Below, piece by piece: positions 28,137 to 37,865 of a stretch of 64,000 bases of DNA; position 1 is the stretch's first letter, and each line of letters starts with the position of its first letter. The stretch spans positions 74-64,073 of the forward strand of contig CAWCMA010000008.1 in assembly GCA_963796565.1 (NCBI GenBank), given 5' to 3'. The translations under genes and the position numbers were made by a program. Source of the DNA: an uncultured delta proteobacterium. Its GTDB lineage: Bacteria > Desulfobacterota > Binatia > Binatales > Binataceae. Below the pieces are notes generated by a model, which worked only from the letters and a program-made list of their open reading frames with translations, had not been told where the DNA came from and did not search any database.

Positions 28137-28724
28137 ATGAGGAAACGAACTGGCTATCTGGCGCGTTGGGCTCTGACGGCAGTCCCGGCCCTCGGGCTGC
28201 TGTTGCTGGCTGGCAGCGGAATGGCTTTTGCCGGGTTAAACCAACACACTTTCCACGGCCGCTATACTGCCTCGTATCACGCCTTTGACGCCTCGATTAC
28301 GTCTGATCCCGCGGAGCCAAACCCACCGGCGATTCCGTACGCGGTGTCAGGTGCGATGTACAGCGATGGCAGGGGGAATGTTTCGGGGTTCCTCAACGAA
28401 GATTACGGTTCTCCCGGCACCGGCGCTGCGTCCACCTGCTCGATCAGCGGGAGCTACACGGTGGGCGCGCCGCCCCTCGGTCCAGCGATGGGATTCGTCA
28501 CGATCAACTTGACCAGCAGCTGCCAGGCGGTGGTCTGCACTGGTACGACCGTGCCGAGTTGCGGTCCTTCCGGTGTAGCCAGCCCGGGATCGCCGGTCCA
28601 GTTGTACTGCGCGTTGTCGGGCCCGTCGGGCAAGGCACTGGACTGCACAGAGATGGGTGAGGCGGCGAGCGGCACCACCTTCCAGACGCCAATCTCGGCG
28701 CCGCACTGGGAGCGGGAGAACTAA
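28137..28724 (+). CDS. Secreted beta-rich hypothetical protein with six Cys
   Basis: GAGGT RBS; signal peptide ...GMAFA; no family recognised. Confidence 0.7.
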   Translation: MRKRTGYLARWALTAVPALGLLLLAGSGMAFAGLNQHTFHGRYTASYHAFDASITSDPAEPNPPAIPYAVSGAMYSDGRGNVSGFLNEDYGSPGTGAASTCSISGSYTVGAPPLGPAMGFVTINLTSSCQAVVCTGTTVPSCGPSGVASPGSPVQLYCALSGPSGKALDCTEMGEAASGTTFQTPISAPHWEREN

Positions 28725-28821
28725 CGGATTCGTTGTGCAACGCGGCGCGGCCGATCATTTGATCGGACGCGCCGCGCCGTGGCCGCATTCACGACCACAA
28801 TTCGACTCGGCCCCGCGTCGG

Positions 28822-29070
28822 TCAGTAATGCCGCGACGGACTCCTGACCAGGTGTACGATGCCGACCACAACGATCGCACCCACCAGCGCCATCGCCAGG
28901 AAGCCCAGTCTGCCGTACACGACGACTCCCAGTGCGTTGAAGATCCAGCTTCCGATGAGCGCTCCGACCAGGCCGAGCAGGATGTCGGCGAACATCCCGT
29001 AGCCCTCGCCGCGCATCAGCTTGCCGGTCAGCCATCCCGCGATCAGTCCGATAATGATTGCTCCGATCAT
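28822..29070 (-). CDS. GlsB/YeaQ/YmgE (transglycosylase-associated) membrane protein
   Basis: IIIGLIAGWL...DILLGLVGALIG...ALVGAIV. Confidence 0.9.
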   Translation of the reverse strand: MIGAIIIGLIAGWLTGKLMRGEGYGMFADILLGLVGALIGSWIFNALGVVVYGRLGFLAMALVGAIVVVGIVHLVRSPSRHY

Positions 29071-29173
29071 GCGATTTATTTCCCCCCGCGCCACGACGAA
29101 AGATTTGACGAAAGATTGCGGATGACGAAAACTTTCTGGCCCCTCTCAAAGCTGTGGGCGCCAGCAATCGCGC

Positions 29174-29815
29174 TTACGCGGTCATGTACTGGTCGACCGA
29201 AAACATCAGGCGGCCCCGCATGATCGGCACGCACGCTGGTGGAAAGTCCTGCACGATTTCGCCGCCGTCTTCGCGCAGGCGCTCGATGAAGCGTCCCAGG
29301 TTGAGCATCGCTCCGGTCGGCAGGTCGTGCAGCACGACTACGCTCCAGGGCACAGCGCGGCACTGCGCGAGCGCCCGCTCGACCCATCCGTCGGGGTCCT
29401 CCCAGTCGCGCGGCACGCAATTCCATAGCACGCAAGTGAAACCGCCAGCGCACAGGTAGTCGACTACCTTGCGATTGAGCAATCCCGAATCGAGCGCTCC
29501 GCCGCCGCCGAAAGGGCGAAAGAGGCGGTCGGGATGGGCGAGCGCGCCGAGCATCCGCTGCGCGCTGCCAATTTCGTCCTCGGCGCCGTCGCGGTCGTCG
29601 CGCCGGCCAAACGGCCTGCTATGGGTCAGGCTGTGATTGCCGATCCAGTGGCCCTCGGCGTGGGCGCGCTCGGCGCGGGCGCGGCGCTCGGGGTCGGCGA
29701 GCTTCTGTACGATTACGAAGAAGGTCGAGCGCACGCGCTGGGCATCGAGCACGTCGAGGACGTGGTCGGTCACCTCGGGCTCGGGCCCGTTGTCGAAGCT
29801 GAGCGTGATTCTCAC
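29174..29815 (-). CDS. Polysaccharide deacetylase (NodB homology)
   Basis: LSFDNGP, TFFV, GNHSLTH, FRPFG, DW, VLHD. Confidence 0.88.
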   Translation of the reverse strand: MRITLSFDNGPEPEVTDHVLDVLDAQRVRSTFFVIVQKLADPERRARAERAHAEGHWIGNHSLTHSRPFGRRDDRDGAEDEIGSAQRMLGALAHPDRLFRPFGGGGALDSGLLNRKVVDYLCAGGFTCVLWNCVPRDWEDPDGWVERALAQCRAVPWSVVVLHDLPTGAMLNLGRFIERLREDGGEIVQDFPPACVPIMRGRLMFSVDQYMTA

Positions 29816-29927
29816 TTTGCCTTCACTTCAGTTCGACCATCTTTGCGCCGGCACCCACGGGCTCGATGCCCCGTGCGACCCGGCCTCGCTCGACTCGCGT
29901 TCGCCGGTCCGGCGACGCCGCCCCGTC

Positions 29928-30047
29928 TTACTTTTTCTGTTCCATCGGGGCGCCACAGCACTTGATCGCGCCGGCGCCGCCCTTGGTGACGATTACCTGG
30001 GAACCGCACTTGCCGCAGATGTAAACTTTTCCGAGCTGATTAGCCAT
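29928..30047 (-). CDS. Desulforedoxin-like miniprotein A (39 aa), below the ORF-track length range
   Basis: Hand translation MANQLGKVYICGKCGSQVIVTKGGAGAIKCCGAPMEQKK*; CX2CX15CC; GGAG upstream; paralog at 34905. Confidence 0.85.
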   Translation of the reverse strand: MANQLGKVYICGKCGSQVIVTKGGAGAIKCCGAPMEQKK

Positions 30048-30088
30048 CGTTTTTGCTTGCTCCGTTGGATGTGATGCGCCGCGCGATT

Positions 30089-30883
30089 TCAGGCGCCGCG
30101 AAAGAGCGGCTTGCGTTTGTCCAGAAAGGCCCGGACGCCCTCGGCGCGGTCGGCTGTGGTTTGTAGCAGGGCGTACAGATCCTCTTCAAGTCTTATACCC
30201 TGATCCAGAGTCAGGTCGCATCCCTTGCGCACGGCCTCTTTGGCCAAGCGCGCGGCGATCGGGCCGCGACTGGTGACCGCGCGCACGACCTCGCCGGCTA
30301 CGCGCTCGAGCGCGGCGCGACCGGGTGCGACGTAGGTCACCAGGCCCAGGCGCATCGCCTCGCCGCCGTCGATCGCAGCGCCGGTCAGCAGCATCCTGAG
30401 CGCCTGGGCCGCACCGATAAGCCGCGGCAGGCGTTGAGTGCCGCCAAAGCGCGGCATCCGTCCGCGCCCGAGCTGACCCATCGTGAAGCGCGCCGCGCGC
30501 GCCGCGACGCGAAGGTCCGTGGCGAGCGCCAGTTCCATTCCTTCGTCGGCGGCGACGCCGCCGATAATCGCTAGCGTCGGCTTCGATAGCACGGCTATCG
30601 ATTCGACGATCATGGGCGCCATGGAAAAGACGTCGTCGTCGAAGCCGGCGCAAAAATTGCCGCCCGCGCCGCGAATCACGAGTATCAGCGCGTCCGCGTC
30701 GTCTTCGACCTCTTCGGCGAGTTCCACCAGCCGACCGGCCATCGCGGCGCTAAGCCGGTTGCGCGCATCCGGCCGCGTAAGCGTCGCAGTGACGCATCCG
30801 CCGGCGCGCGCGACCTCGATCTGCCCGGTCGCGGCGCGTGCCGGGCGCGGGCGCTCAGGGCTGCGGCGTGTCGCCCTTGTCAC
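30089..30883 (-). CDS. Enoyl-CoA hydratase/isomerase (crotonase) family, second catalytic Glu replaced by Gln
   Basis: LTRPDARN, FCAGFD, GMELALATDLR, GGTQRLPRLIG, EGVRAFLDKRKP. Confidence 0.9.
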   Translation of the reverse strand: MTRATRRSPERPRPARAATGQIEVARAGGCVTATLTRPDARNRLSAAMAGRLVELAEEVEDDADALILVIRGAGGNFCAGFDDDVFSMAPMIVESIAVLSKPTLAIIGGVAADEGMELALATDLRVAARAARFTMGQLGRGRMPRFGGTQRLPRLIGAAQALRMLLTGAAIDGGEAMRLGLVTYVAPGRAALERVAGEVVRAVTSRGPIAARLAKEAVRKGCDLTLDQGIRLEEDLYALLQTTADRAEGVRAFLDKRKPLFRGA

Positions 30884-32408
30884 GCAGTTCCTTGCGCAGG
30901 ATTTTGCCGAGCGGATTCTTGGGCAGCGCCTCGATGAACTCGATCGCCTCGGGCCGCTTGAAGCTCGCCAGACGCGTGCGGCAGAACTCCGCGATGTCGT
31001 GCGCGGTGACGTTTTGTCCCGGCCGCACCACTACGAAGGCCTTGACGGTCTGGCCCCATTCGACCGACGGCACGCCGATGACCGCCGCCTCGTCGATCGC
31101 CGGATGGCTCATCAGGACGGTTTCGATCTCGGCGGGTGCGATATTCTCGCCGCCGCGGATGATCATGTCGTCCTTGCGTCCGGCGAAGAACACGTAACCT
31201 TCTTCGTCGACCCATCCGAGGTCGCCGGTCGCGCGCCATCCCTCGGGCAGGCGGGAATCGTCCTCACGCCCGGCGTAGCCCTTCATGATGCGCGGGGTGC
31301 GGATGAGGATTTCGCCGACTTGGCCCGCCGCCATGAGCTTGCCCTCGTCGTCGCGCACTGCGATCTCGACGTCGGGCAGCGGGCGGCCGATCGAGTTGAG
31401 CCGCTTGAGCTTCAGCTCGACGGTCCTGGCATCGCCGTCGATACGATGGTCGTCGGGGCCGAGCACGGTCAGCGAGGAGGTGGTCTCGGTCTGGCCATAC
31501 GCGTTGACGAAGCCAACGGTTTTGGGGAACGCCTCGATCGCGCGGCGAATGGTCTGAATCGGCATCGCCGCACCGCCATAGGCGAGATTGGTGAGATTGG
31601 AGAAATCGGTGTTGGCAAACGACGGCTCGTCGAGCAACTGCTTCATCATGGTCGGTACGACGAAGGCGTGCGTGACCTTTTCGCGCGCGACCAGTTGCAG
31701 CCAGGCCTTGGGATCGAACTGCGGCATCACCACCACCCGTCGCCCGGTCCACAGGTTGGTCATCATCGCGGTGGTACCGGCGATGTGGTAAAACGGCACG
31801 CACACCAGCGCGACCCCGCGCTCGGTGCCGTCGGCCATCTCGACGTTGGCTGTCACGTAGGCAGCGAAATCGCGAAAGCGCAACATCACGCCCTTGGGCA
31901 GCGAGGTCGTGCCGCTGGTGTACATCAGGACCGACACATCCTCGTCCTCGACCTCGACTTCGCCCTCATCGACCTCGGCCGCCTTGATCAGGTCCGCGAG
32001 CCGCGGTAATCCGGCCTTGCCCTCTCCCCAGGCCACTACCTTGGCGGTTTTGAGCTTGGGCGCCACGCGCGTGACGAGGTCGAGGTAACGGTCGCCGGCC
32101 AACAGCACTTTGGCCCCGGCGGTGTTGATCATGTACTCGAGCTCGGCGTCCTTGGCGCGGTAGTTGAGCGGCAGCCAGGTCAGTCCGGCCTTGGCGGCGG
32201 CGTAGTAGCCGGCGATGTAGTTGTCGGAGTTGGTGTCGAGGCCGGCGACTACGTCGCGAGGTTTGAGCCCGAGCGTCTTGAAGGCCGAACTCAGGCGCCC
32301 GACCAATTCGTTGAGCGCTGCGTAAGTGAGTCTGCGATCGCCGAAGACCAGGATTTCCTGCTCTGGGGCAATCGACCCGGGGATGCTGATGAAACTGACG
32401 GTGTTCAC
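30855..32408 (-). CDS. Acyl-CoA synthetase / AMP-binding (ANL) enzyme
   Basis: YTSGTTSLPKG, YGQTE, TGD, GRKDDMIIRGGENI, LPKNPLGK. Confidence 0.95.
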   Translation of the reverse strand: MNTVSFISIPGSIAPEQEILVFGDRRLTYAALNELVGRLSSAFKTLGLKPRDVVAGLDTNSDNYIAGYYAAAKAGLTWLPLNYRAKDAELEYMINTAGAKVLLAGDRYLDLVTRVAPKLKTAKVVAWGEGKAGLPRLADLIKAAEVDEGEVEVEDEDVSVLMYTSGTTSLPKGVMLRFRDFAAYVTANVEMADGTERGVALVCVPFYHIAGTTAMMTNLWTGRRVVVMPQFDPKAWLQLVAREKVTHAFVVPTMMKQLLDEPSFANTDFSNLTNLAYGGAAMPIQTIRRAIEAFPKTVGFVNAYGQTETTSSLTVLGPDDHRIDGDARTVELKLKRLNSIGRPLPDVEIAVRDDEGKLMAAGQVGEILIRTPRIMKGYAGREDDSRLPEGWRATGDLGWVDEEGYVFFAGRKDDMIIRGGENIAPAEIETVLMSHPAIDEAAVIGVPSVEWGQTVKAFVVVRPGQNVTAHDIAEFCRTRLASFKRPEAIEFIEALPKNPLGKILRKELRDKGDTPQP

Positions 32409-33247
32409 GGTACTCCGTTTCCTCCAGGGCGGCGCGCCCTCTTTGGGGCATCTATGGCCGCCGTCGCTCGCTTTTCGAGCTTGAGATTTTCGAGCCTGCG
32501 GGCGAGCCGGCGTTCCATCGCCAGCCCTTCCTCCAGCGGCAAGTCCAGGCCGTCCCAGACCGCCAGCTTCGCCATCGCGACCCGCTCGCGCGGCAAGCGG
32601 CTCAGACCGCGAGCCAACGCCCCAGCCGCACGTGTCAGTGCCGCCCGAGGCACGACTTCGGCGACCAAACCTATTGCTAAAGCCTGCTTTGCGTCAATCC
32701 AACGGCCCGTGATGCAAAGGTCGAGCGCCCGTCCCGGACCCAAGCGCCGCGAGGCCGTTTGCGTACCGGCAACCCCGGGAATCATTCCAAGCCCCGTCTC
32801 GGGCAGGCAAAAGGACGCGTCTTCGGCCGCGATCGCGATATCGCACAACAACACCATTTCGAGGCCGCCGCCGACCGCGTAGCCGTGAACGGCGGCGACC
32901 GTCGGGATCGTCAGCGCGCGCAAGCGGCCCCATACGTCGCGCCGAAAGCGCGCCCATCGCGCGACGGTGGGCGAGGGCGCGGTGCCGAACTCGCTCACGT
33001 CGCCGCCGGTGGAGAACGCGGGACCCGCGCCAGAGAGCACCATCGCGCGCACCTCGGGATCGTCGTGGACGGCACTGAGCGCGCCGAACAGGTCGTCGCG
33101 CATCGCCACGTTGTAGGCGTTGAGTTGGCGCGGCCGGTTTAGCGTTATCCATGCGATCGCTGCGCGCTTTTCGAAACGGATCGCGCTGAAACCCGGCGAC
33201 GGCGGTGACGGGTCGATGCGGTGCGATGCCTGCGCCATGTGAGCCAC
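32405..33247 (-). CDS. Enoyl-CoA hydratase/isomerase (crotonase) family
   Basis: LNRPRQLNA, FSTGGD, GGGLEM...LPE (both Glu present). Confidence 0.92.
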   Translation of the reverse strand: MAHMAQASHRIDPSPPSPGFSAIRFEKRAAIAWITLNRPRQLNAYNVAMRDDLFGALSAVHDDPEVRAMVLSGAGPAFSTGGDVSEFGTAPSPTVARWARFRRDVWGRLRALTIPTVAAVHGYAVGGGLEMVLLCDIAIAAEDASFCLPETGLGMIPGVAGTQTASRRLGPGRALDLCITGRWIDAKQALAIGLVAEVVPRAALTRAAGALARGLSRLPRERVAMAKLAVWDGLDLPLEEGLAMERRLARRLENLKLEKRATAAIDAPKRARRPGGNGVP

Positions 33248-33281
33248 GAGAGGCGGTTGACGGACCGATGGTCCGAGATAT

Positions 33282-34886
33282 TCAGCCGGCGAGGTCGGCG
33301 CCGTGGCTGGCGGCGAACTCAGGCCGCCCGCGCTCGAAGACTACGCGTCCGCCGATGATCGTCAAATCGACCGGCAGATTCATCAGGTCGGCCGGCTTGA
33401 GCGCCATCGGATCGCGCGGCAGCACGATAAGGTCGGCCAGGCGCCCGAGCGCTATCTCGCCCGCCGCCAGACGCGCCAGGCGCGCCGCCTGCGTGGTGAA
33501 AAGCGCGAAGCCCTGTCCGATCGAAATTCGCTCGGCGAGGCCGATTTCATAGCCCTCGAGCGAAAAGCGCATCGCGGCGGCGGCGATCGCAGTCAGCGGC
33601 CGCGCCGGGGTGACCGGCGCGTCGGTGGCGCCGGCGAGCTCGATCCCGGCCTCGAGCAGGCTCCGCGCCCGATACAGATAGGGCAGCAGTCCCGGCTCGG
33701 TGACGTACTTGGCGCCGCGGTAGTAAGAGAAACCCGGATTGGTTACCACCCACACGCCCAGCGCCTTGAGGCGCTCGAGATGCTCGGGCGTAATCACGCC
33801 GCCATGCTCGATACGAAAAACCGGGCCGCCGTCGCGCGCCGGCGGCATCCCGCGCGCGGCGGTCTCGAGCGAGTTGAGCGCGAGTTCGAGGTCTTCGACC
33901 TCGGTGCAATGGAACGCCGAGTCGAGTCCGGCCTGACGCGCGCGCGCGACCCAGCGCGCGATCGGGCGGTAGTCGGTTTGCGGACTCTCGATGAACTTCA
34001 CCGCGACCAGGGTGATTCCGGCCGGCTGGGCGATCCGCGCCGCCTCGTCGACGGCGTTGAAGTAGGGCGCCCCGAGCATCATCGCGATCCGTTGCGTGAC
34101 GGCTCGCCCGCTCAGCAGCCCCGCCATCAGCGCGACTTCCTCGGGCCCGTTGCGGACGGTCGCGTCGGTAAACGCGGTCACCCCGGCAGCGGCCATCTCG
34201 CGGCTGAACAGGCGCGCGCGCGACTCCAATTCGGCCGGAGTCACGAGCGGCAGCCGTCGCGAAAGATAGCTTTCCATCCCCGCCACCAAACCGTTCAGAC
34301 GGCCCGTCGCATCGCGCATCAGGACCGCACCCTCTGGCGCCTTGAACTCGGGTGCCTCGAGACCGAGCGCGGCTATCGCACGCGAGTTGAGCCATGAGGC
34401 ATGGAGCGTCTGATGGCGCAGGCGCAGCGGATTCCTGGGCACCGCGGCGTCGAGTTCCGCCCGCGTGGGCCCGCGCCGCCCGGCCAGCAGCGCCTCATCG
34501 CATCCGAACGCGCGCATCCAGTTGCCCGGCGGCGTCTTGCCGGCGGCCACGCGCAACTGGGCCATCAGGTCGTCGAGCTGGCGGCATCGCCACAGGCTAA
34601 GGCCGCCCGCCGCCGACGCGCCTTCGAGGAAATGGAGATGCGAATCAATTAGCCCCGGCGCAACGACGCGACCGGCCAGCCGGATCAGATGCGTGCGTGG
34701 GCCGACCAGCGGCTTAAAATCGTCAAACAGTCCCAGTGCGAGGATTTTGCCGCCGGCGACCGCGATTGAATCGCTGGCGGGATGGCCCAGGATCACTCCT
34801 TCATGCAAAACCAGGTCAGCCTTATCGAGAGCCATCAGCTTATTGAGCGCCAGAGAACCGAGCGCGAGGGCAGTGCGCCGCGGCAT
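33282..34886 (-). CDS. Amidohydrolase_3 (YtcJ-like) metal-dependent hydrolase
   Basis: PGLIDSHLH, HASWLNS, FHC, RIEH, ATDAP, ADLIVL, TIIGG. Confidence 0.9.
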   Translation of the reverse strand: MPRRTALALGSLALNKLMALDKADLVLHEGVILGHPASDSIAVAGGKILALGLFDDFKPLVGPRTHLIRLAGRVVAPGLIDSHLHFLEGASAAGGLSLWRCRQLDDLMAQLRVAAGKTPPGNWMRAFGCDEALLAGRRGPTRAELDAAVPRNPLRLRHQTLHASWLNSRAIAALGLEAPEFKAPEGAVLMRDATGRLNGLVAGMESYLSRRLPLVTPAELESRARLFSREMAAAGVTAFTDATVRNGPEEVALMAGLLSGRAVTQRIAMMLGAPYFNAVDEAARIAQPAGITLVAVKFIESPQTDYRPIARWVARARQAGLDSAFHCTEVEDLELALNSLETAARGMPPARDGGPVFRIEHGGVITPEHLERLKALGVWVVTNPGFSYYRGAKYVTEPGLLPYLYRARSLLEAGIELAGATDAPVTPARPLTAIAAAAMRFSLEGYEIGLAERISIGQGFALFTTQAARLARLAAGEIALGRLADLIVLPRDPMALKPADLMNLPVDLTIIGGRVVFERGRPEFAASHGADLAG

Positions 34887-34904
34887 ATCCTCGCGCGCAG
34901 CATC

Positions 34905-35048
34905 TTAATCCGAGGAGGGAAGCGCCTTGGCTTCTTTGATTTTCATCTCGACCTCGCAACACTCGATCGCGCCGGTGCCCGGCTTGTTGCAGAGCACCTC
35001 AGTGCCACACTTTTCGCACAGGTAACGCTTGCCCAATTGGTTAGCCAT
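34905..35048 (-). CDS. Desulforedoxin-like miniprotein B (47 aa) with C-terminal ALPSSD tail, below the ORF-track length range
   Basis: Hand translation MANQLGKRYLCEKCGTEVLCNKPGTGAIECCEVEMKIKEAKALPSSD*; GGGAG RBS; CX2CX15CC. Confidence 0.87.
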   Translation of the reverse strand: MANQLGKRYLCEKCGTEVLCNKPGTGAIECCEVEMKIKEAKALPSSD

Positions 35049-35206
35049 CTTTTGATACTCCCGTTATCGTCGCCGGCCGTTTCAGGCCCGGTCGTGAAAT
35101 CTTCGCTTGAGGACCGCAATCGGTGAGATTCCCCGCGTTGTCCCCTGGCACTTTTTTAGAGCATCGCACGCATTTCTTCAATGAGTCATCTTGTCGATTG
35201 TACCCG

Positions 35207-36223
35207 CTATGCGTCGCTCGCAAACGGCAACTCGCTCACCGCCGCCGCTATCTCGCCGTCCGCGTCATCGATCGTGACCGCGGTGCCCGGCGCCCAGGCG
35301 CTGTGATGCAACACGGCGAGGGCGAGCACGCCCAGCCGGGGCGAGCGCAGCGGGCTGCTAAGATGGCCGACGTCCTTGCCCGCGAGCATCACGCGCGCAT
35401 CGGCGGCCGGAACGCGCGCGCCGTCAAGCTTAAGCCCCATCAGCCGCCGCTTCAGCGCGCCGCGCGCGGTCGCTCGCTCGATCGTCTCCTGCCCGATATA
35501 ACATCCCTTGCTGAACGAGATCGCCGGTTCCATCCGCGCCTCCAGCGCGATCGTTTTGTCGTTGGTGTCGACGCCGACCCGCGCCGCGCCGCTCTCCACC
35601 CGCACGATCTCGGCGGCGTCGATACTGACCTCCAAAAGCTCGCGTACGCCCGTGCTCAGCCGTGCGACGATCTCCGGCGCGTCGGCGCGCGCCATGAGAA
35701 TCGTGAAGGCCGGTGCGCCCCATCGCGTAACCTGCGCGACCAGCGCGCCGCCCTCGGCTTCGCCAAAGCGCCATGCGCCAGGCAGCGCCGCCGGCTCGCC
35801 GAAAACCGCCGCGACCGCCGCAGCCGCGTGCGGCCCATCGATTTGGATCACGCTGTCGTATTTGACGGCGTCGCCGCTTTCCTCCAACTCGACATCGTCT
35901 GCGACCAGGAAGCGTTCGAGGTGAGCACGCACGGCCGGCCACAGCGCGCGCTCCATCTCGAGCAGCAGCGCGTCGGCGGTTGCCCACACGGTAGCTTCGG
36001 CAATCAGGTGGGCGCGCTCGGTCAGGAACAGCACCGAGACGAGGCCGCCCGGATTGAGGCCCTTGATATCGTTGCTGCACATCCCGTGCAGGAATGACGC
36101 GCGGTCATCCCCGCTCATCCGGATAACGATGCGCTCGGCGCACAGCCGCACGCCGGCGCCGCTTGTGAGAGCGCGGTAGCCGGCCTCAACGCCGTCGCTG
36201 CCCGAGATGTCGCGGCTCGCCAT
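35207..36223 (-). CDS. ygfZ: Folate-binding YgfZ/GcvT-like Fe-S maturation factor
   Basis: Signature FSKGCYIGQE; G.DRASFLHG. Confidence 0.9.
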   Translation of the reverse strand: MASRDISGSDGVEAGYRALTSGAGVRLCAERIVIRMSGDDRASFLHGMCSNDIKGLNPGGLVSVLFLTERAHLIAEATVWATADALLLEMERALWPAVRAHLERFLVADDVELEESGDAVKYDSVIQIDGPHAAAAVAAVFGEPAALPGAWRFGEAEGGALVAQVTRWGAPAFTILMARADAPEIVARLSTGVRELLEVSIDAAEIVRVESGAARVGVDTNDKTIALEARMEPAISFSKGCYIGQETIERATARGALKRRLMGLKLDGARVPAADARVMLAGKDVGHLSSPLRSPRLGVLALAVLHHSAWAPGTAVTIDDADGEIAAAVSELPFASDA

Positions 36224-36326
36224 GGTCCAATTCTATCATCGCCGGCGATTACATATACTGATCCTGTACCGATTCTGGAGGCCTGAGACGTCGATGTTTC
36301 GGCGGACGAGAGAGCCGGCATCAAGC

Positions 36327-37865
36327 ATGGCGACGTGCTGGCGGCGCGCGCTCGAAGCCGCGCTGCTCGGCGCGCTGTTGTGCGCGAGTATCCCTGCGGC
36401 GCGCGCCGCTGACGACCCCAAGGGCGCCTCTTCCGAGCTAAGCAACCAGGCCTTCACGTTGCTTAATTCTCTGAACGCGCCTGACGCCGACGGTGCCGCG
36501 AACCCGGAAGCCAAGGCGCTGTTGGGACCGGTCGCGAGCTTCGCCGGCGACGCGCAGACGCTCAGCCAGGCGCTCGGCGCGGGCGACGACGCCGGCGCCC
36601 GGCGCGCCGCGGCCTCACTTGATTCCGACTTGGCTGCGATCGACGCCGCACTCAAGCTGCATCGCAGGGCGATTGAGGCGGGCAGATGGGACGCGCTCAA
36701 GCATCAGCTCGCCACGATCGAAAAAAGCTTGCCGCCCGCGCCGCCCGCGCCGCCCGTGCCACCCGCGCCCGCATCCGCCGCGCCGCCTTCGGCTCCGCTA
36801 CCCACTGAAGGAGAACCTGCGCCCGCGAGCGCGCCCGCGTCATCCTCCGCGGATAGCGGTGGCCCCACGCTCAAGATCGAGTCGCGCAGCCTTGAGGGCA
36901 ACGTTGTGCAGCTCAAGGGATACTTCGAAGGCTCGGCGCTACGTTCGGCGGGTATTTATGAGGGCGCGCAGCAGGTCAAGCCGATGAAGGTGGACCACGT
37001 GATCGGGCGCCAGAAGGTGGAATTCCAATTGGCGCTTCACGACGCCGATATCTCGACCAACCTCCGCGTCATCGACCAGGCCGGGCGGATGGCGACCGCC
37101 TCGGTCTTCGCCGACGACTCGACCGCGATGGCGACCACCAGCACGGAATCGGGAGTCGAGGTCGACCGTGGCGCCGGGTCGGCCTCCGGCAGCAACACTG
37201 AGGAGATTCCAAACGCGACCTCGCCGCCGGGGGGTCCGGAGGAACCGGCCGCGCGCGCGGATGAAGGTCTGGGCGGAACCGGTATAGGTGGCGGACTCGT
37301 CGGCGGAGGAATCGGCGCTCCGATGGGCAACATTCAGATCAACATCGAGGCGGTGAACCCGATAAACCCGGTTTCGCACCTCTACCAGGTGGTCGGACAG
37401 ATAATTGGGCATGGCGTGCGCCGGGCGGGGATCTATATCGACGGGCGGCTGGTCAAGCGATTGCCGGTCAGCCGCGGCAACCTCAGCAACTTCGCGACGA
37501 CCTTCAGGCTGAGCGGCGGCACGGCGACGATTCGGGCGTTCAGCGCGGGCAACCAGTATGTCGAGTCGTCGATCGCGATGCCGTCGGCGGGGGTTCCGTC
37601 GATGCCGCCGATGGTGGTCGCACCCTATGGTATGAGCCCATATAGCCCGTTCGGGATGAACCCGTACGCGATGGATCCGTACGGAACTGTCTATGGCGCG
37701 AGCCCCTCCTACGGCTACAACATCAGCCCTTACGGAATCACGCGCTACCCGATTAGCCCCTACGGCGCGAGCCCATACGGCGCGGCTCCGTCCGCGGTCA
37801 ATCCTTACGCGCCGCCGATCAATCCCTATGGCAACGTGCCGCCGATGGGCCCGGCGGGCCGCTAA
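36327..37865 (+). CDS. Secreted hypothetical protein with two similar beta-domains and a PYG-repeat tail
   Basis: Signal peptide ...PAARA; RSAGIYEG / RRAGIYIDG internal repeat; start uncertain. Confidence 0.75.
   Translation: MATCWRRALEAALLGALLCASIPAARAADDPKGASSELSNQAFTLLNSLNAPDADGAANPEAKALLGPVASFAGDAQTLSQALGAGDDAGARRAAASLDSDLAAIDAALKLHRRAIEAGRWDALKHQLATIEKSLPPAPPAPPVPPAPASAAPPSAPLPTEGEPAPASAPASSSADSGGPTLKIESRSLEGNVVQLKGYFEGSALRSAGIYEGAQQVKPMKVDHVIGRQKVEFQLALHDADISTNLRVIDQAGRMATASVFADDSTAMATTSTESGVEVDRGAGSASGSNTEEIPNATSPPGGPEEPAARADEGLGGTGIGGGLVGGGIGAPMGNIQINIEAVNPINPVSHLYQVVGQIIGHGVRRAGIYIDGRLVKRLPVSRGNLSNFATTFRLSGGTATIRAFSAGNQYVESSIAMPSAGVPSMPPMVVAPYGMSPYSPFGMNPYAMDPYGTVYGASPSYGYNISPYGITRYPISPYGASPYGAAPSAVNPYAPPINPYGNVPPMGPAGR

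What the first reader, a model, noticed from the sequence alone, without database searches (positions are those of the whole stretch)
29928..35048. Two unannotated desulforedoxin-like miniproteins bracket an amidohydrolase-crotonase-CoA ligase-crotonase operon (candidate undescribed system)
Seen: two minus-strand ORFs absent from the ORF track. A (29928-30047) is MANQLGKVYICGKCGSQVIVTKGGAGAIKCCGAPMEQKK. B (34905-35048) is MANQLGKRYLCEKCGTEVLCNKPGTGAIECCEVEMKIKEAKALPSSD. They are 22/39 identical by hand alignment, both have an SD-like GGAG, and both carry C-x2-C-x15-C-C. They are the first and last genes of a tightly packed co-directional unit: B, amidohydrolase, crotonase, ANL ligase, crotonase, A (gaps 18-41 nt or overlaps). 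Established: C-x2-C-x15-C-C is the Fe(Cys)4 motif of desulforedoxin, a small dimeric protein also found as the N-terminal domain of desulfoferrodoxin (superoxide reductase). No superoxide reductase domain is present here. Inference: the pair, possibly a heterodimer, is a dedicated partner of this acyl-CoA pathway, acting as an activator of the adenylating enzyme (MbtH-like role), an electron shuttle or a substrate carrier. ygfZ (Fe-S maturation) lies directly upstream on the same strand.
Basis: partly seen in the sequence, partly recalled or inferred. Interest (0 to 1): 0.85.

Follow-up and report, generated by a model that had tools for sequence, protein, structure and literature searches.

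The report
Split desulforedoxin-like mini-protein pair
Two tiny, strongly conserved cysteine-rich genes that bracket this acyl-CoA operon are the two halves of a widespread but undescribed two-part metal-binding mini-protein that travels with enzymes that make acyl-CoA, and whose job nobody has yet tested.

Summary
Both mini-ORFs are real genes. A (39 aa) passes Pfam's desulforedoxin-domain cut-off. B (47 aa) falls below it but is 56% identical to A. Both are under purifying selection, and both lie 4.8-7.6 kb apart on one contig in 53 of 61 genomes of the family.

In other phyla A and B are adjacent genes in the order A then B (77 of 80 and 40 of 40 loci), or are fused into one chain. They are therefore two halves of one unit, probably a heterodimer; the complex prediction gave only weak support.

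B-type proteins and fusions end in an invariant C-terminal ...S-[S/A]-D.

The pair is genetically tied to acyl-CoA-forming enzymes:
- An ECH2-ECH1-ligase-A-B block recurs in several phyla.
- One genome holds 7 ligase paralogs and 7 pairs.
- Pair and ligase clade co-occur: the same 6 of 81 genomes in the phylum sample; odds ratio 10.5 in 101 Dehalococcoidia.

The tie is not obligate. In Dehalococcoidia the pair mostly stands alone, sometimes beside flavoproteins or cupredoxins.

My best reading is an accessory or adaptor subunit of the CoA-activating enzyme (about 0.4). An electron carrier is the main rival (about 0.3).

This scan has noted the same family before on other DNA. I found no paper describing it.

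The parts
34905..35048 (-). B: 47-aa desulforedoxin-like mini-protein with an invariant C-terminal tail ...KALPSSD
   Evidence: ORF and SD. PF06397 17.7 bits, below the cut-off. 106 protein clusters at E<=1e-3, with D47 invariant in a 75-row alignment. pN/pS 0.15.
33282..34886 (-). Amidohydro_3 (YtcJ-like) metal-dependent hydrolase, 18 nt after B
   Evidence: PF07969 234 bits. The only PDB relatives are uncharacterised hydrolases. Homologs at 29-38% identity recur near the pair in other phyla.
32405..33247 (-). ECH1: canonical crotonase with both catalytic Glu
   Evidence: PF00378 178 bits. Both Glu are invariant in 51 of 51 orthologs.
30855..32408 (-). ANL-family acyl-CoA ligase, the clade that co-occurs with the pair
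   Evidence: PF00501 and PF13193. NF004837 467.6 bits against a cut-off of 476. Co-occurrence and co-duplication with the pair.
30089..30883 (-). ECH2: crotonase-fold protein that lacks the second catalytic Glu
   Evidence: PF00378 135 bits. At the position of the second Glu, 29 of 44 orthologs have Gln, 8 have His and none has Glu.
29928..30047 (-). A: 39-aa desulforedoxin-domain mini-protein ending ...PMEQKK
   Evidence: ORF and SD. PF06397 32.9 bits, above the cut-off of 23. 289 representative proteins at E<=1e-3. pN/pS 0.10.
35207..36223 (-). YgfZ/GcvT-like folate-binding protein, the first gene of the co-directional block. It is a conserved neighbour of B only in this class.
   Evidence: PF01571 and PF08669. 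TIGR03317 72.6 bits. It lies next to B in all 19 family genomes examined and in G136. The same tblastn query found it in none of the other loci examined.

Best explanation
A and B are the two subunits of one small heterodimeric protein of the desulforedoxin fold. Each half holds a metal in a Cys4 site. The family is widespread and undescribed, and its halves are normally encoded side by side (A then B) or fused. In this bacterial class a rearrangement has placed them at the two ends of the operon.

Most likely the A-B unit is a non-catalytic accessory or adaptor subunit of the enzyme that forms the acyl-CoA thioester. Here that enzyme is the ANL ligase; in other lineages it is a CoA-transferase. 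On this reading the metal sites hold the tiny fold together, and the invariant C-terminal tail of B (...P-S-S-D with a free carboxylate) is the docking element.

Shown here: the genes are real, they form a pair, and they are genetically linked to, co-duplicated with and co-occurring with the ligase clade.

Inferred only: physical binding, which metal is bound, the role of the tail, and the effect on the enzyme.
For: The genes are real and constrained.

The two types form a pair:
- A-then-B adjacency in 77 of 80 genome loci; the other 3 are cut by a contig end.
- A-then-B adjacency in 40 of 40 loci of a class-wide sample.
- Natural A-domain plus B-domain fusions of 80-110 aa.
- An AF2 model of the fusion P0107 has pLDDT 82 and pTM 0.71. 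One domain superposes on 1dxg_A at TM 0.94 and 0.4 A.
- The complex prediction for A+B gave weak support: score 0.32, best of 3 controls 0.02, the runs agree in at least 96% of contacts, and the partner's pLDDT is at least 66. That mark was reached by 58 of 80 solved complexes and 2 of 110 mismatches. At 0.60 or under it was reached by only 7 of those 80 and by both mismatches. The alignments were my own. The desulforedoxin homodimer is solved, so the pass may come from likeness.

The pair is linked to CoA-activating enzymes:
- ECH2-ECH1-ligase-A-B in 5 of 5 further pair-bearing genomes of the phylum sample.
- The ligase lies directly upstream in 21 of 38 metagenome loci, and 31 of 38 hold at least one module gene.
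- 15 of 80 genome loci have the ECH pair with a ligase or a CoA-transferase.
- In the phylum sample the pair and the ligase ortholog (E<=1e-110) occur in the same 6 of 81 genomes.
- Genome G150 has 7 ligase-clade paralogs and 7 pairs. All 5 pairs with enough flank touch a ligase paralog, in three different gene orders.
- Among 101 Dehalococcoidia: both 59, pair only 14, ligase only 8, neither 20. The odds ratio is 10.5. The genomes are kin and not independent.

The neighbours here (ligase, hydratases, hydrolase) need no electrons. The C-terminal Asp is invariant in 75 of 75 B-type rows and in 14 of 14 fusions.
Against: - No single enzyme is always present. CoA-transferases replace the ligase in Acidobacteriota-type loci.
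- In the class-wide Dehalococcoidia sample, 0 of 40 pairs have the ligase within 5.5 kb.
- 14 of 73 pair-bearing genomes there lack a ligase ortholog at E<=1e-100.
- One near-complete genome (G143) has the pair, yet its best ligase match is 32% identical and its best ECH1 match 39%, and it has no NMO match.
- The only chemistry known for this fold is a redox Fe(Cys)4 centre.
- No natural fusion of A or B to a ligase, crotonase or transferase was found. P0258 and P0269 look like read-through gene calls.
- No binding test between the pair and an enzyme could be run.
Confidence: 0.4

Rival explanations
1. Electron carrier. The A-B heterodimer binds two Fe(Cys)4 centres, as desulforedoxin does. 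It shuttles single electrons to or from a flavoenzyme or other redox protein. The B tail docks on the redox partner.
For: - The ligand pattern and fold match desulforedoxin.
- Redox proteins recur as immediate co-directional neighbours in otherwise unrelated contexts:
  - an NMO-family flavoenzyme right after B in Acidobacteriota-type, Desulfobacterota and sediment loci;
  - a PyrK-like FAD/[2Fe-2S] protein (cluster seen in 45 of 80 loci) or a flavodoxin (12 of 80) upstream in Dehalococcoidales;
  - cupredoxin or cytochrome c-cupredoxin genes upstream in 7 of 40 loci.
- The pair persists in genomes that lack the ligase clade. It is present in 73 of 101 Dehalococcoidia, a prevalence that suits a general carrier.
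- Where a Cys ligand is replaced, the replacement is His or Asp, which can also bind metal.
Against: - No redox enzyme is in the block in this window or in the 19 family genomes examined.
- The best NMO homologs in this genome are only 40-41% identical and lie elsewhere.
- One-to-one co-duplication with a non-redox ligase in G150.
- Most PyrK neighbours sit in an ordinary pyr operon.
- NMO-family enoyl reductases are known to use NAD(P)H directly (recalled, not tested here).
Confidence: 0.3
2. Carrier or scaffold protein. The invariant C-terminal Asp carboxylate of B is itself the acid that the ligase or CoA-transferase activates, or the site where a substrate is tethered. The crotonases then work on the tethered group, and the amidohydrolase releases the product. 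The logic resembles LysW or scaffold-peptide pathways.
For: - The one property shared by the three interchangeable neighbour enzymes (ANL ligase, class I CoA-transferase, family III CoA-transferase) is activation of a free carboxylate.
- B always ends in a free Asp.
- A YtcJ-like amidohydrolase recurs near the pair. It follows B directly here and in 5 of 40 Dehalococcoidia loci, and it ends the sediment clusters.
Against: - I could not write a chemically plausible crotonase reaction on an Asp thioester (my own reasoning).
- There is no ATP-grasp or other known tethering enzyme in the loci, apart from CarB in the pyr operons.
- The ligase looks like an ordinary fatty-acyl-CoA ligase.
- Most Dehalococcoidia pairs stand alone.
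- The high conservation of A has no role in this model.
Confidence: 0.08
3. General housekeeping metal-binding protein (a metal buffer or chaperone, a nucleic-acid or ribosome-associated zinc-ribbon-like factor, or a helper of Fe-S maintenance with YgfZ). On this view its linkage to acyl-CoA genes is inherited synteny without a direct functional tie.
For: - In the class-wide sample the contexts are diverse and housekeeping: convergent LexA in 13 of 40 loci, also NusA/IF-2, RecO, S20/RelA.
- ygfZ is adjacent throughout this class.
- The profile also weakly hits ribosomal protein S27e.
Against: - Linkage with the ligase/ECH module recurs across at least four phylum-level groups with rearranged gene orders.
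- The pair co-duplicates with the ligase.
- Unlinked co-occurrence has an odds ratio of 10.5.
- ygfZ adjacency is seen in one class only.
Confidence: 0.12

Closest known systems
Desulforedoxin of Desulfovibrio gigas (PDB 1DXG/1CFW; Pfam PF06397)
   Same: About 36-aa fold. The C-x2-C-x15-C-C ligand pattern and the GG.G..CCG..M motif match. The profile hits 1cfw at E 3.4e-6. One domain of the model superposes on 1dxg_A at 0.4 A. Desulforedoxin is a dimer of two such units.
   Different: Here there are two distinct, co-inherited subunit types (or one fused chain) instead of a homodimer. The family has its own N-terminus, (M)ANQxGKRY. B carries an invariant 10-residue C-terminal tail ending in Asp. 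The genes sit with acyl-CoA enzymes, in bacteria that include aerobes. Metal content is untested.
N-terminal domain of desulfoferrodoxin (2Fe superoxide reductase; PDB 1DFX, 1VZG, 2JI1)
   Same: This is the best sequence match among solved structures (E 1.5e-6), with the same Cys4 site.
   Different: There is no SOR domain in either protein, and none was found in the genome (PF01880: 0 matches, genome 95.9% complete).
MbtH-like proteins (small partners of NRPS adenylation domains). The comparison is by role; their properties are recalled, not tested here.
   Same: A small protein encoded beside an adenylate-forming (ANL superfamily) enzyme, which it co-occurs with and co-duplicates with.
   Different: There is no sequence or fold relation: Pfam finds only PF06397. 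This protein binds metal and has two parts. It also accompanies CoA-transferases, which are not adenylating enzymes.
DUF35/BbsA-type zinc-ribbon scaffold subunits of thiolase-type acyl-CoA enzyme complexes. The comparison is by role; recalled, not tested here.
   Same: A small Cys4 metal-ribbon protein that serves as a structural subunit of CoA-thioester enzymes and is encoded in the same operon.
   Different: DUF35 has an OB fold plus a rubredoxin-type ribbon and partners with thiolases. No thiolase is in these loci, and there is no sequence match.
LysW amino-group carrier protein. The comparison is by role; recalled, not tested here.
   Same: A tiny metal-ribbon globule with a conserved acidic C-terminal tail whose terminal carboxylate is the functional group.
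   Different: LysW ends in EDWGE and works with an ATP-grasp ligase (LysX). No such enzyme or motif is present here, and the fold family differs.

Membership tests
Desulforedoxin domain (Pfam PF06397 / TIGR00319) | Score above the curated cut-off | tested here: inconclusive
   On PF06397 (cut-off 23), A scores 32.9 bits (met) and B 17.7 bits (not met). Both are below the TIGR00319 cut-off of 36.05 (27.7 and 12.4 bits). B is tied to A by 56% identity.
Desulforedoxin domain (Pfam PF06397 / TIGR00319) | Four Cys ligands spaced C-x2-C-x15-C-C | tested here: met
   C11, C14, C30 and C31 are present in both A and B. C11, C14 and C30 are invariant, and C31 is at least 90% conserved in alignment A1. 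In some relatives His or Asp replaces one Cys of the CC pair.
Desulforedoxin domain (Pfam PF06397 / TIGR00319) | Desulforedoxin fold | tested here: met
   The AF2 model is of a natural A-B fusion (P0107), a relative and not the window's own proteins. One domain aligns to 1dxg_A at TM 0.94 and rmsd 0.4 A over 35 columns. The Foldseek E-value of 1.2 is not significant at this size.
Desulforedoxin domain (Pfam PF06397 / TIGR00319) | Dimer of two domains | tested here: inconclusive
   The complex prediction gave weak support only: 0.32 against a best control of 0.02, and the pass may come from likeness to the solved homodimer. Gene adjacency and fusions argue for a hetero-pair.
Desulforedoxin domain (Pfam PF06397 / TIGR00319) | Binds Fe in a redox-active Fe(Cys)4 centre | not testable with these tools
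   This needs metal analysis, UV-vis/EPR and electrochemistry of the recombinant protein.
Desulfoferrodoxin / 2Fe superoxide reductase | C-terminal SOR domain (PF01880) | tested here: not met
   A and B end after 39 and 47 residues. PF01880 has 0 matches in the 95.9%-complete genome.
MbtH-like protein | MbtH domain, with an NRPS adenylation domain as neighbour | tested here: not met
   The Pfam scan of A and B returns only PF06397 and a weak Zn-ribbon hit. The neighbouring ANL enzyme is of the fatty-acyl-CoA ligase type, not an NRPS.
LysW-type amino-group carrier protein | C-terminal EDWGE-type tail and an adjacent ATP-grasp LysX-type ligase | tested here: not met
   The tail is ...LPSSD. The only ATP-grasp proteins among the annotated recurrent neighbours were CarB in the pyr operons. 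The motif of LysW itself is recalled.
Rubredoxin | Two C-x2-C knuckles (PF00301) | tested here: not met
   The second ligand pair is an adjacent CC. There is no PF00301 hit at E<=0.1.

The most novel reading that the evidence does not exclude
B is a new kind of protein-borne carboxylate substrate or carrier. On this reading its invariant C-terminal Asp is converted into a CoA thioester, or loaded with a substrate, by whichever CoA-activating enzyme lies next to it (ANL ligase, class I CoA-transferase or family III CoA-transferase). The A-B metal domain would be the handle that the pathway enzymes recognise, and the YtcJ-like amidohydrolase would recycle the carrier. That would make this a LysW-like or scaffold-peptide-like system built on a desulforedoxin fold.
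Probability: 0.08. Interest if true: 0.9.

Novelty: new variant of a known kind. Interest (0 to 1): 0.62.

Why it matters
- A two-part desulforedoxin-fold mini-protein is present in 60 of 61 genomes sampled from this family. It is in 73 of 101 sampled Dehalococcoidia and in several other phyla, yet it has no name, no paper that I could find, and no tested function.
- Gene callers and annotation pipelines miss it or label it 'hypothetical'.
- If it is an obligatory partner of one clade of acyl-CoA ligases or transferases, heterologous expression and assays of those enzymes without it may fail or mislead, as happened for NRPS adenylation domains before MbtH-like proteins were recognised.
- If it is instead a dedicated electron carrier, it marks an unrecognised redox step in a widespread acyl-CoA pathway of soil and sediment bacteria.
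- Either answer can be reached with simple co-expression, pull-down and metal analysis.

Tried and rejected
Searches that could not run as first set up:
I used B there and sent A to the representative search.
- The search for related loci with the broad alignments A1, A3 and A6 failed for lack of a conserved stretch. I used the narrower alignment A2 and the single fusion protein P0259.
- That metagenome scan mostly returned unfused A-B pairs of one clade, picked up by the pattern KRYRCEAC. It is therefore not an independent sample of fusions.

Searches that gave little:
- A search for longer proteins fused to B gave only A-B fusions and start-miscalled forms. It also gave two single sequences, P0269 (B plus amidohydrolase) and P0271. 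In both a Q replaces B's stop and the reading ends in frame-shifted text. I treat them as read-through gene calls, not Rosetta-stone fusions. P0258 (A-B fusion plus a ligase N-terminus) is treated likewise.
- The promoter and terminator scans of 28600-36500 were at shuffle level.
- Foldseek gave no hit at E<=0.001 for the 90-aa model. Only the per-domain match to 1dxg_A is used.
- The protein atlas returned only unnamed or PF06397 clusters.

Expression:
- Only contigs were available, not raw reads.
- One metatranscriptome run (X20) has contigs of relatives lying over A and most of B. Record 26 covers 29785-30116 with 24 other letters and 13 gaps. Record 31 covers 34924-35317 with 36 other letters and 4 gaps.
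- The tool warns that presence in an RNA library does not show transcription. I do not count this as evidence of expression.

Readings considered and dropped:
- RiPP precursor: the peptides are far too conserved.
- Partner of superoxide reductase: no SOR domain was found.
- Functional tie to ygfZ: the adjacency is seen in one class only.
Full report
**Observation**

- A (window 29928-30047, minus strand, 39 aa) scores 32.9 bits on Pfam PF06397, the desulforedoxin-type N-terminal domain of desulfoferrodoxin (cut-off 23).
- B (34905-35048, minus strand, 47 aa) scores 17.7 bits, below the cut-off. It is 22/39 identical to A (E 2e-15).
- Both carry C-x2-C-x15-C-C.

Between them lie four genes:
- an Amidohydro_3 hydrolase (33282-34886);
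- a crotonase (ECH1, 32405-33247);
- an AMP-binding acyl-CoA ligase (30855-32408);
- a second crotonase (ECH2, 30089-30883).

A YgfZ/GcvT-like gene precedes B. No superoxide reductase domain (PF01880) was found anywhere in the 95.9%-complete genome.

**Are they genes?**

- A search with B across 61 genomes of the same family (names point to Candidatus Binataceae) found matches in 60 genomes and in 30 of 30 genera.
- By my reading of that table, 53 of 61 genomes have a B-type and an A-type match 4.8-7.6 kb apart on one contig and strand.
- The other 8 break down as follows: in 4 the two types are on different contigs, in 1 they are 65 kb apart, 2 have a single match, and 1 (69% complete) has none.
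- Four of the 61 genomes (G017, G059, G042, G044) are flagged as unpublished. Only these tallies rest on them.
- In 19 family genomes fetched, 18 show the order ygfZ-B-amidohydrolase-ECH1-ligase-ECH2-A. Three of the 18 carry inserts between the amidohydrolase and ECH1 (about 0.8 kb in one, about 2.7 kb in two).
- In the remaining genome, G010, the block is split into [ygfZ-B-amidohydrolase] and [ECH1-ligase-ECH2-A].
- The mini-proteins are conserved at least as well as the enzymes. Against the window, A is 69-95% identical and B 72-94%. The values are 45-81% for YgfZ, 45-87% for the amidohydrolase and 55-86% for the crotonases.
- Across 18 orthologs, pN/pS is 0.10 (A) and 0.15 (B), with synonymous sites near saturation.

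**They are two halves of one unit**

- A phmmer search of 1.84 billion representative proteins with A gave 289 hits at E<=1e-3. These fall into three kinds:
  - A-type singles that end ...PME.KK;
  - B-type singles that end ...LPS[SA]D;
  - chains of 80-110 aa made of an A-like domain, a linker and a B-like domain with the same tail.
- The C-terminal Asp is invariant in 75 of 75 aligned B-type proteins and in 14 of 14 fusions.
- In 80 loci from species genomes, an A gene is followed directly by a B gene in 77; the other 3 are cut by a contig end. These loci are mostly Dehalococcoidia, with some labelled Acidobacteriota, Syntrophaceae/Syntrophorhabdaceae or 'delta proteobacterium'.
- In 40 further loci, taken in handle order from a class-wide sample, A is followed by B in 40 of 40.
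- An AF2 model of the natural fusion P0107 is confident (pLDDT 82, pTM 0.71). One of its domains superposes on desulforedoxin 1dxg_A at TM 0.94 and 0.4 A. The Foldseek E-value is not significant for so small a domain.
- The complex prediction for the window's A+B gave weak support:
  - score 0.32 against a best control of 0.02;
  - the runs agree in at least 96% of contacts, and the partner's pLDDT is at least 66;
  - the mark was reached by 58 of 80 solved complexes and 2 of 110 mismatches, but at 0.60 or under by only 7 of those 80 and by both mismatches;
  - the alignments were my own, and because the desulforedoxin homodimer is solved, the pass may reflect likeness only.
- The bracket layout seen here is therefore a rearrangement of an ancestral A-B pair. 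A genome of another family in the same class (G136) has ygfZ-B-ECH1-ligase-ECH2-A without the amidohydrolase.

**What the pair travels with**

*Same phylum.* In a sample of 81 genomes, clear A/B pairs occur in 6. Most other hits are the N-terminal domain of 125-140-aa desulfoferrodoxins.
- Orthologs of the window's ligase (E<=1e-110) occur in exactly the same 6 genomes. In some genomes only the best 18 candidates were scored.
- Four of the five additional genomes show ECH2-ECH1-ligase-A-B, often followed by an NMO-family flavoenzyme or by family III CoA-transferases. The fifth, G130, starts at a contig end with ligase-A and carries a second A-B-NMO beside CoA-transferase genes.

*Metagenome contigs.* Among 38 contigs found with a fusion query, 21 have the ligase directly upstream and 31 hold at least one module gene. 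The remaining 7 are contigs of 3.2 kb or less.
- The longest show CoAT3-ECH2-ECH1-ligase-A-B-NMO-CoAT3-CoAT3 followed by an amidohydrolase on the opposite strand.
- These loci are close kin and not independent.

*The 80 species-genome loci.* Fifteen have the ECH pair with a ligase or a CoA-transferase. Typically the order is ECH-ECH-CoA_trans(a)-CoA_trans(b)-A-B-NMO in loci labelled Acidobacteriota.

*Co-duplication.* One 5.6-Mb Dehalococcoidia genome (G150) has 7 ligase-clade paralogs and 7 pairs.
- All 5 pairs with enough flank touch a ligase paralog.
- The orders are ligase-A-B, A-B-ligase and B-A-ligase.
- The rest of the pairs and paralogs sit at contig ends.

**The link is not obligate**

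- The 80 loci were ranked by likeness to a Dehalococcoidia-type query. Most of them sit at the end of a pyrimidine operon (PyrR-PyrB-PyrC-CarB-PyrK).
  - A PyrK-like protein is in 45 of 80 loci.
  - A UPF0047 protein (21 loci) or a flavodoxin (12 loci) lies just upstream.
  - S20, GTP cyclohydrolase I or RelA converge from downstream.
- In the class-wide sample of 40 loci:
  - none has the ligase within 5.5 kb;
  - 1 has class I CoA-transferase genes;
  - 5 have a YtcJ-like amidohydrolase directly downstream on the same strand;
  - 13 have a convergent LexA;
  - 7 have a cupredoxin or a cytochrome c-cupredoxin gene upstream on the same strand.
- Even so, pair and ligase clade co-occur across the 101 genomes of that class: both 59, pair only 14, ligase only 8, neither 20. 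The odds ratio is 10.5 and Fisher p is 2e-6. The genomes are kin, so this overstates the case.
- Five Dehalococcoidia genomes were checked in detail:
  - 3 keep ECH-ECH1-ligase elsewhere in the genome;
  - 1 keeps ECH1 only;
  - 1 (G143) has none of ligase, ECH1 ortholog or NMO.

**The enzymes**

- ECH1 orthologs keep both catalytic Glu (51 of 51). ECH2 orthologs keep the first Glu (44 of 44) but never the second: Gln in 29, His in 8, others in 7. ECH2 is therefore not a standard hydratase.
- The ligase is closest to fatty-acyl-CoA ligases: NF004837 at 467.6 bits against a cut-off of 476, and FadD13 in the PDB.
- The only solved relatives of the amidohydrolase are uncharacterised.
- I could not identify the substrate of the pathway.

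**Mechanism**

Two readings compete.

*(i) Accessory or adaptor subunit of the CoA-activating enzyme.* On this reading the B tail is the docking element and the metal is structural.
- For: co-duplication with a non-redox ligase, co-occurrence with the ligase clade, linkage kept through changes of gene order, the absence of any redox enzyme in this operon, and the invariant free C-terminus.

*(ii) Desulforedoxin-type one-electron carrier.*
- For: the fold and its ligands; flavoprotein, cupredoxin or cytochrome neighbours in unrelated contexts; the pair's persistence without the ligase clade; and its high prevalence.

I put (i) at about 0.4 and (ii) at about 0.3.

A bolder reading is that B's terminal Asp carboxylate is itself the acid being activated, or a tethering site. 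It would explain why ligases and two classes of CoA-transferase are interchangeable neighbours, and why an amidohydrolase recurs. I could not write plausible chemistry for the crotonases in that scheme, so I give it about 0.08.

A general housekeeping role with inherited synteny gets about 0.12.

**Comparison with the known**

- By fold and ligands these are desulforedoxin-domain proteins. A meets the Pfam cut-off; B does not.
- They are not desulfoferrodoxins (no SOR domain), rubredoxins, MbtH-like proteins or LysW (membership table).
- They differ from D. gigas desulforedoxin in four ways: two co-inherited subunit types or a fused pseudo-dimer; the family-specific N-terminus ANQxGKRY; the invariant tail on B; and their genetic company.

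**Novelty**

- Four full-text searches found no description of such a pair. 'desulforedoxin' with 'enoyl-CoA hydratase' gave 0 papers and with 'acyl-CoA' gave 0. 'desulforedoxin-like' gave 2 papers, and 'desulforedoxin' since 2015 gave 12. I saw search listings and abstract starts only, and none concerns this. Subscription journals are largely outside that library, and supplements were not available.
- This scan has noted the same family before on other DNA: e1-720095, e1-1255188, e1-3612856 and e1-2395240. I saw those notes only after my own loci analysis.
- My results agree with them that the pair sits beside acyl-CoA-forming enzymes. They contradict the wording 'always', because most Dehalococcoidia pairs are unlinked.

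**Verdict**

This is a new variant of a known fold, and its function is unknown but readily testable.

Noticed in passing
G000:C1:770550-770681 (+), = L002:1435-1623: A third, degenerate B-like reading frame in the same genome (...GKRYRREKCGTEVLCTKGE...KPLPSSD). The first Cys of the C-x2-C motif is replaced by Arg. No ATG/GTG/TTG start in that frame gives an ORF of 35 aa or more. It lies just after a 393-aa membrane-protein ORF. It is probably a decaying paralog.
   Followed up: partly
window 30089-30883 (-), and orthologs in L034-L177: The ECH2 clade systematically lacks the second catalytic Glu of enoyl-CoA hydratases (Gln 29, His 8, others 7, of 44). The partner ECH1 keeps both Glu (51 of 51). 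The two genes nearly always travel together, which may point to a heteromeric crotonase or to a non-hydratase activity.
   Followed up: partly
G150 (Dehalococcoidia, 5.6 Mb): loci L181-L188: One genome carries 7 paralogs of the ligase clade and 7 A-B pairs. This is the clearest case of co-duplication.
   Followed up: yes
L194:7776-7895, L195:7623-7739, L196:8098-8220: Stand-alone A-like mini-proteins with only three Cys (...C-G-D-T-P-L-E.KK) and no B gene beside them, in some Dehalococcoidia genomes. They may be a third subtype.
   Followed up: no
proteins P0168, P0184, P0200 (195-196 aa); P0113 (1353 aa); P0226 (1622 aa): Proteins with four desulforedoxin-like repeats, and two very long proteins with 4-6 such stretches, turned up in the representative search with A.
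   Followed up: no
G000, whole genome: The genome holds at least 31 family III CoA-transferase (PF02515-type) paralogs at E<=1e-30. That is a large expansion.
   Followed up: no
L197-L236 (class-wide Dehalococcoidia loci): A LexA-like repressor gene converges on the A-B pair in 13 of 40 loci. Cupredoxin or cytochrome c-cupredoxin genes lie just upstream on the same strand in 7 of 40.
   Followed up: partly
window 29174-29815 (-): The polysaccharide-deacetylase-family gene downstream of A is kept only in the same-genus genome (L034). It is not in the other 18 family genomes examined, so it is not part of the conserved block.
   Followed up: yes
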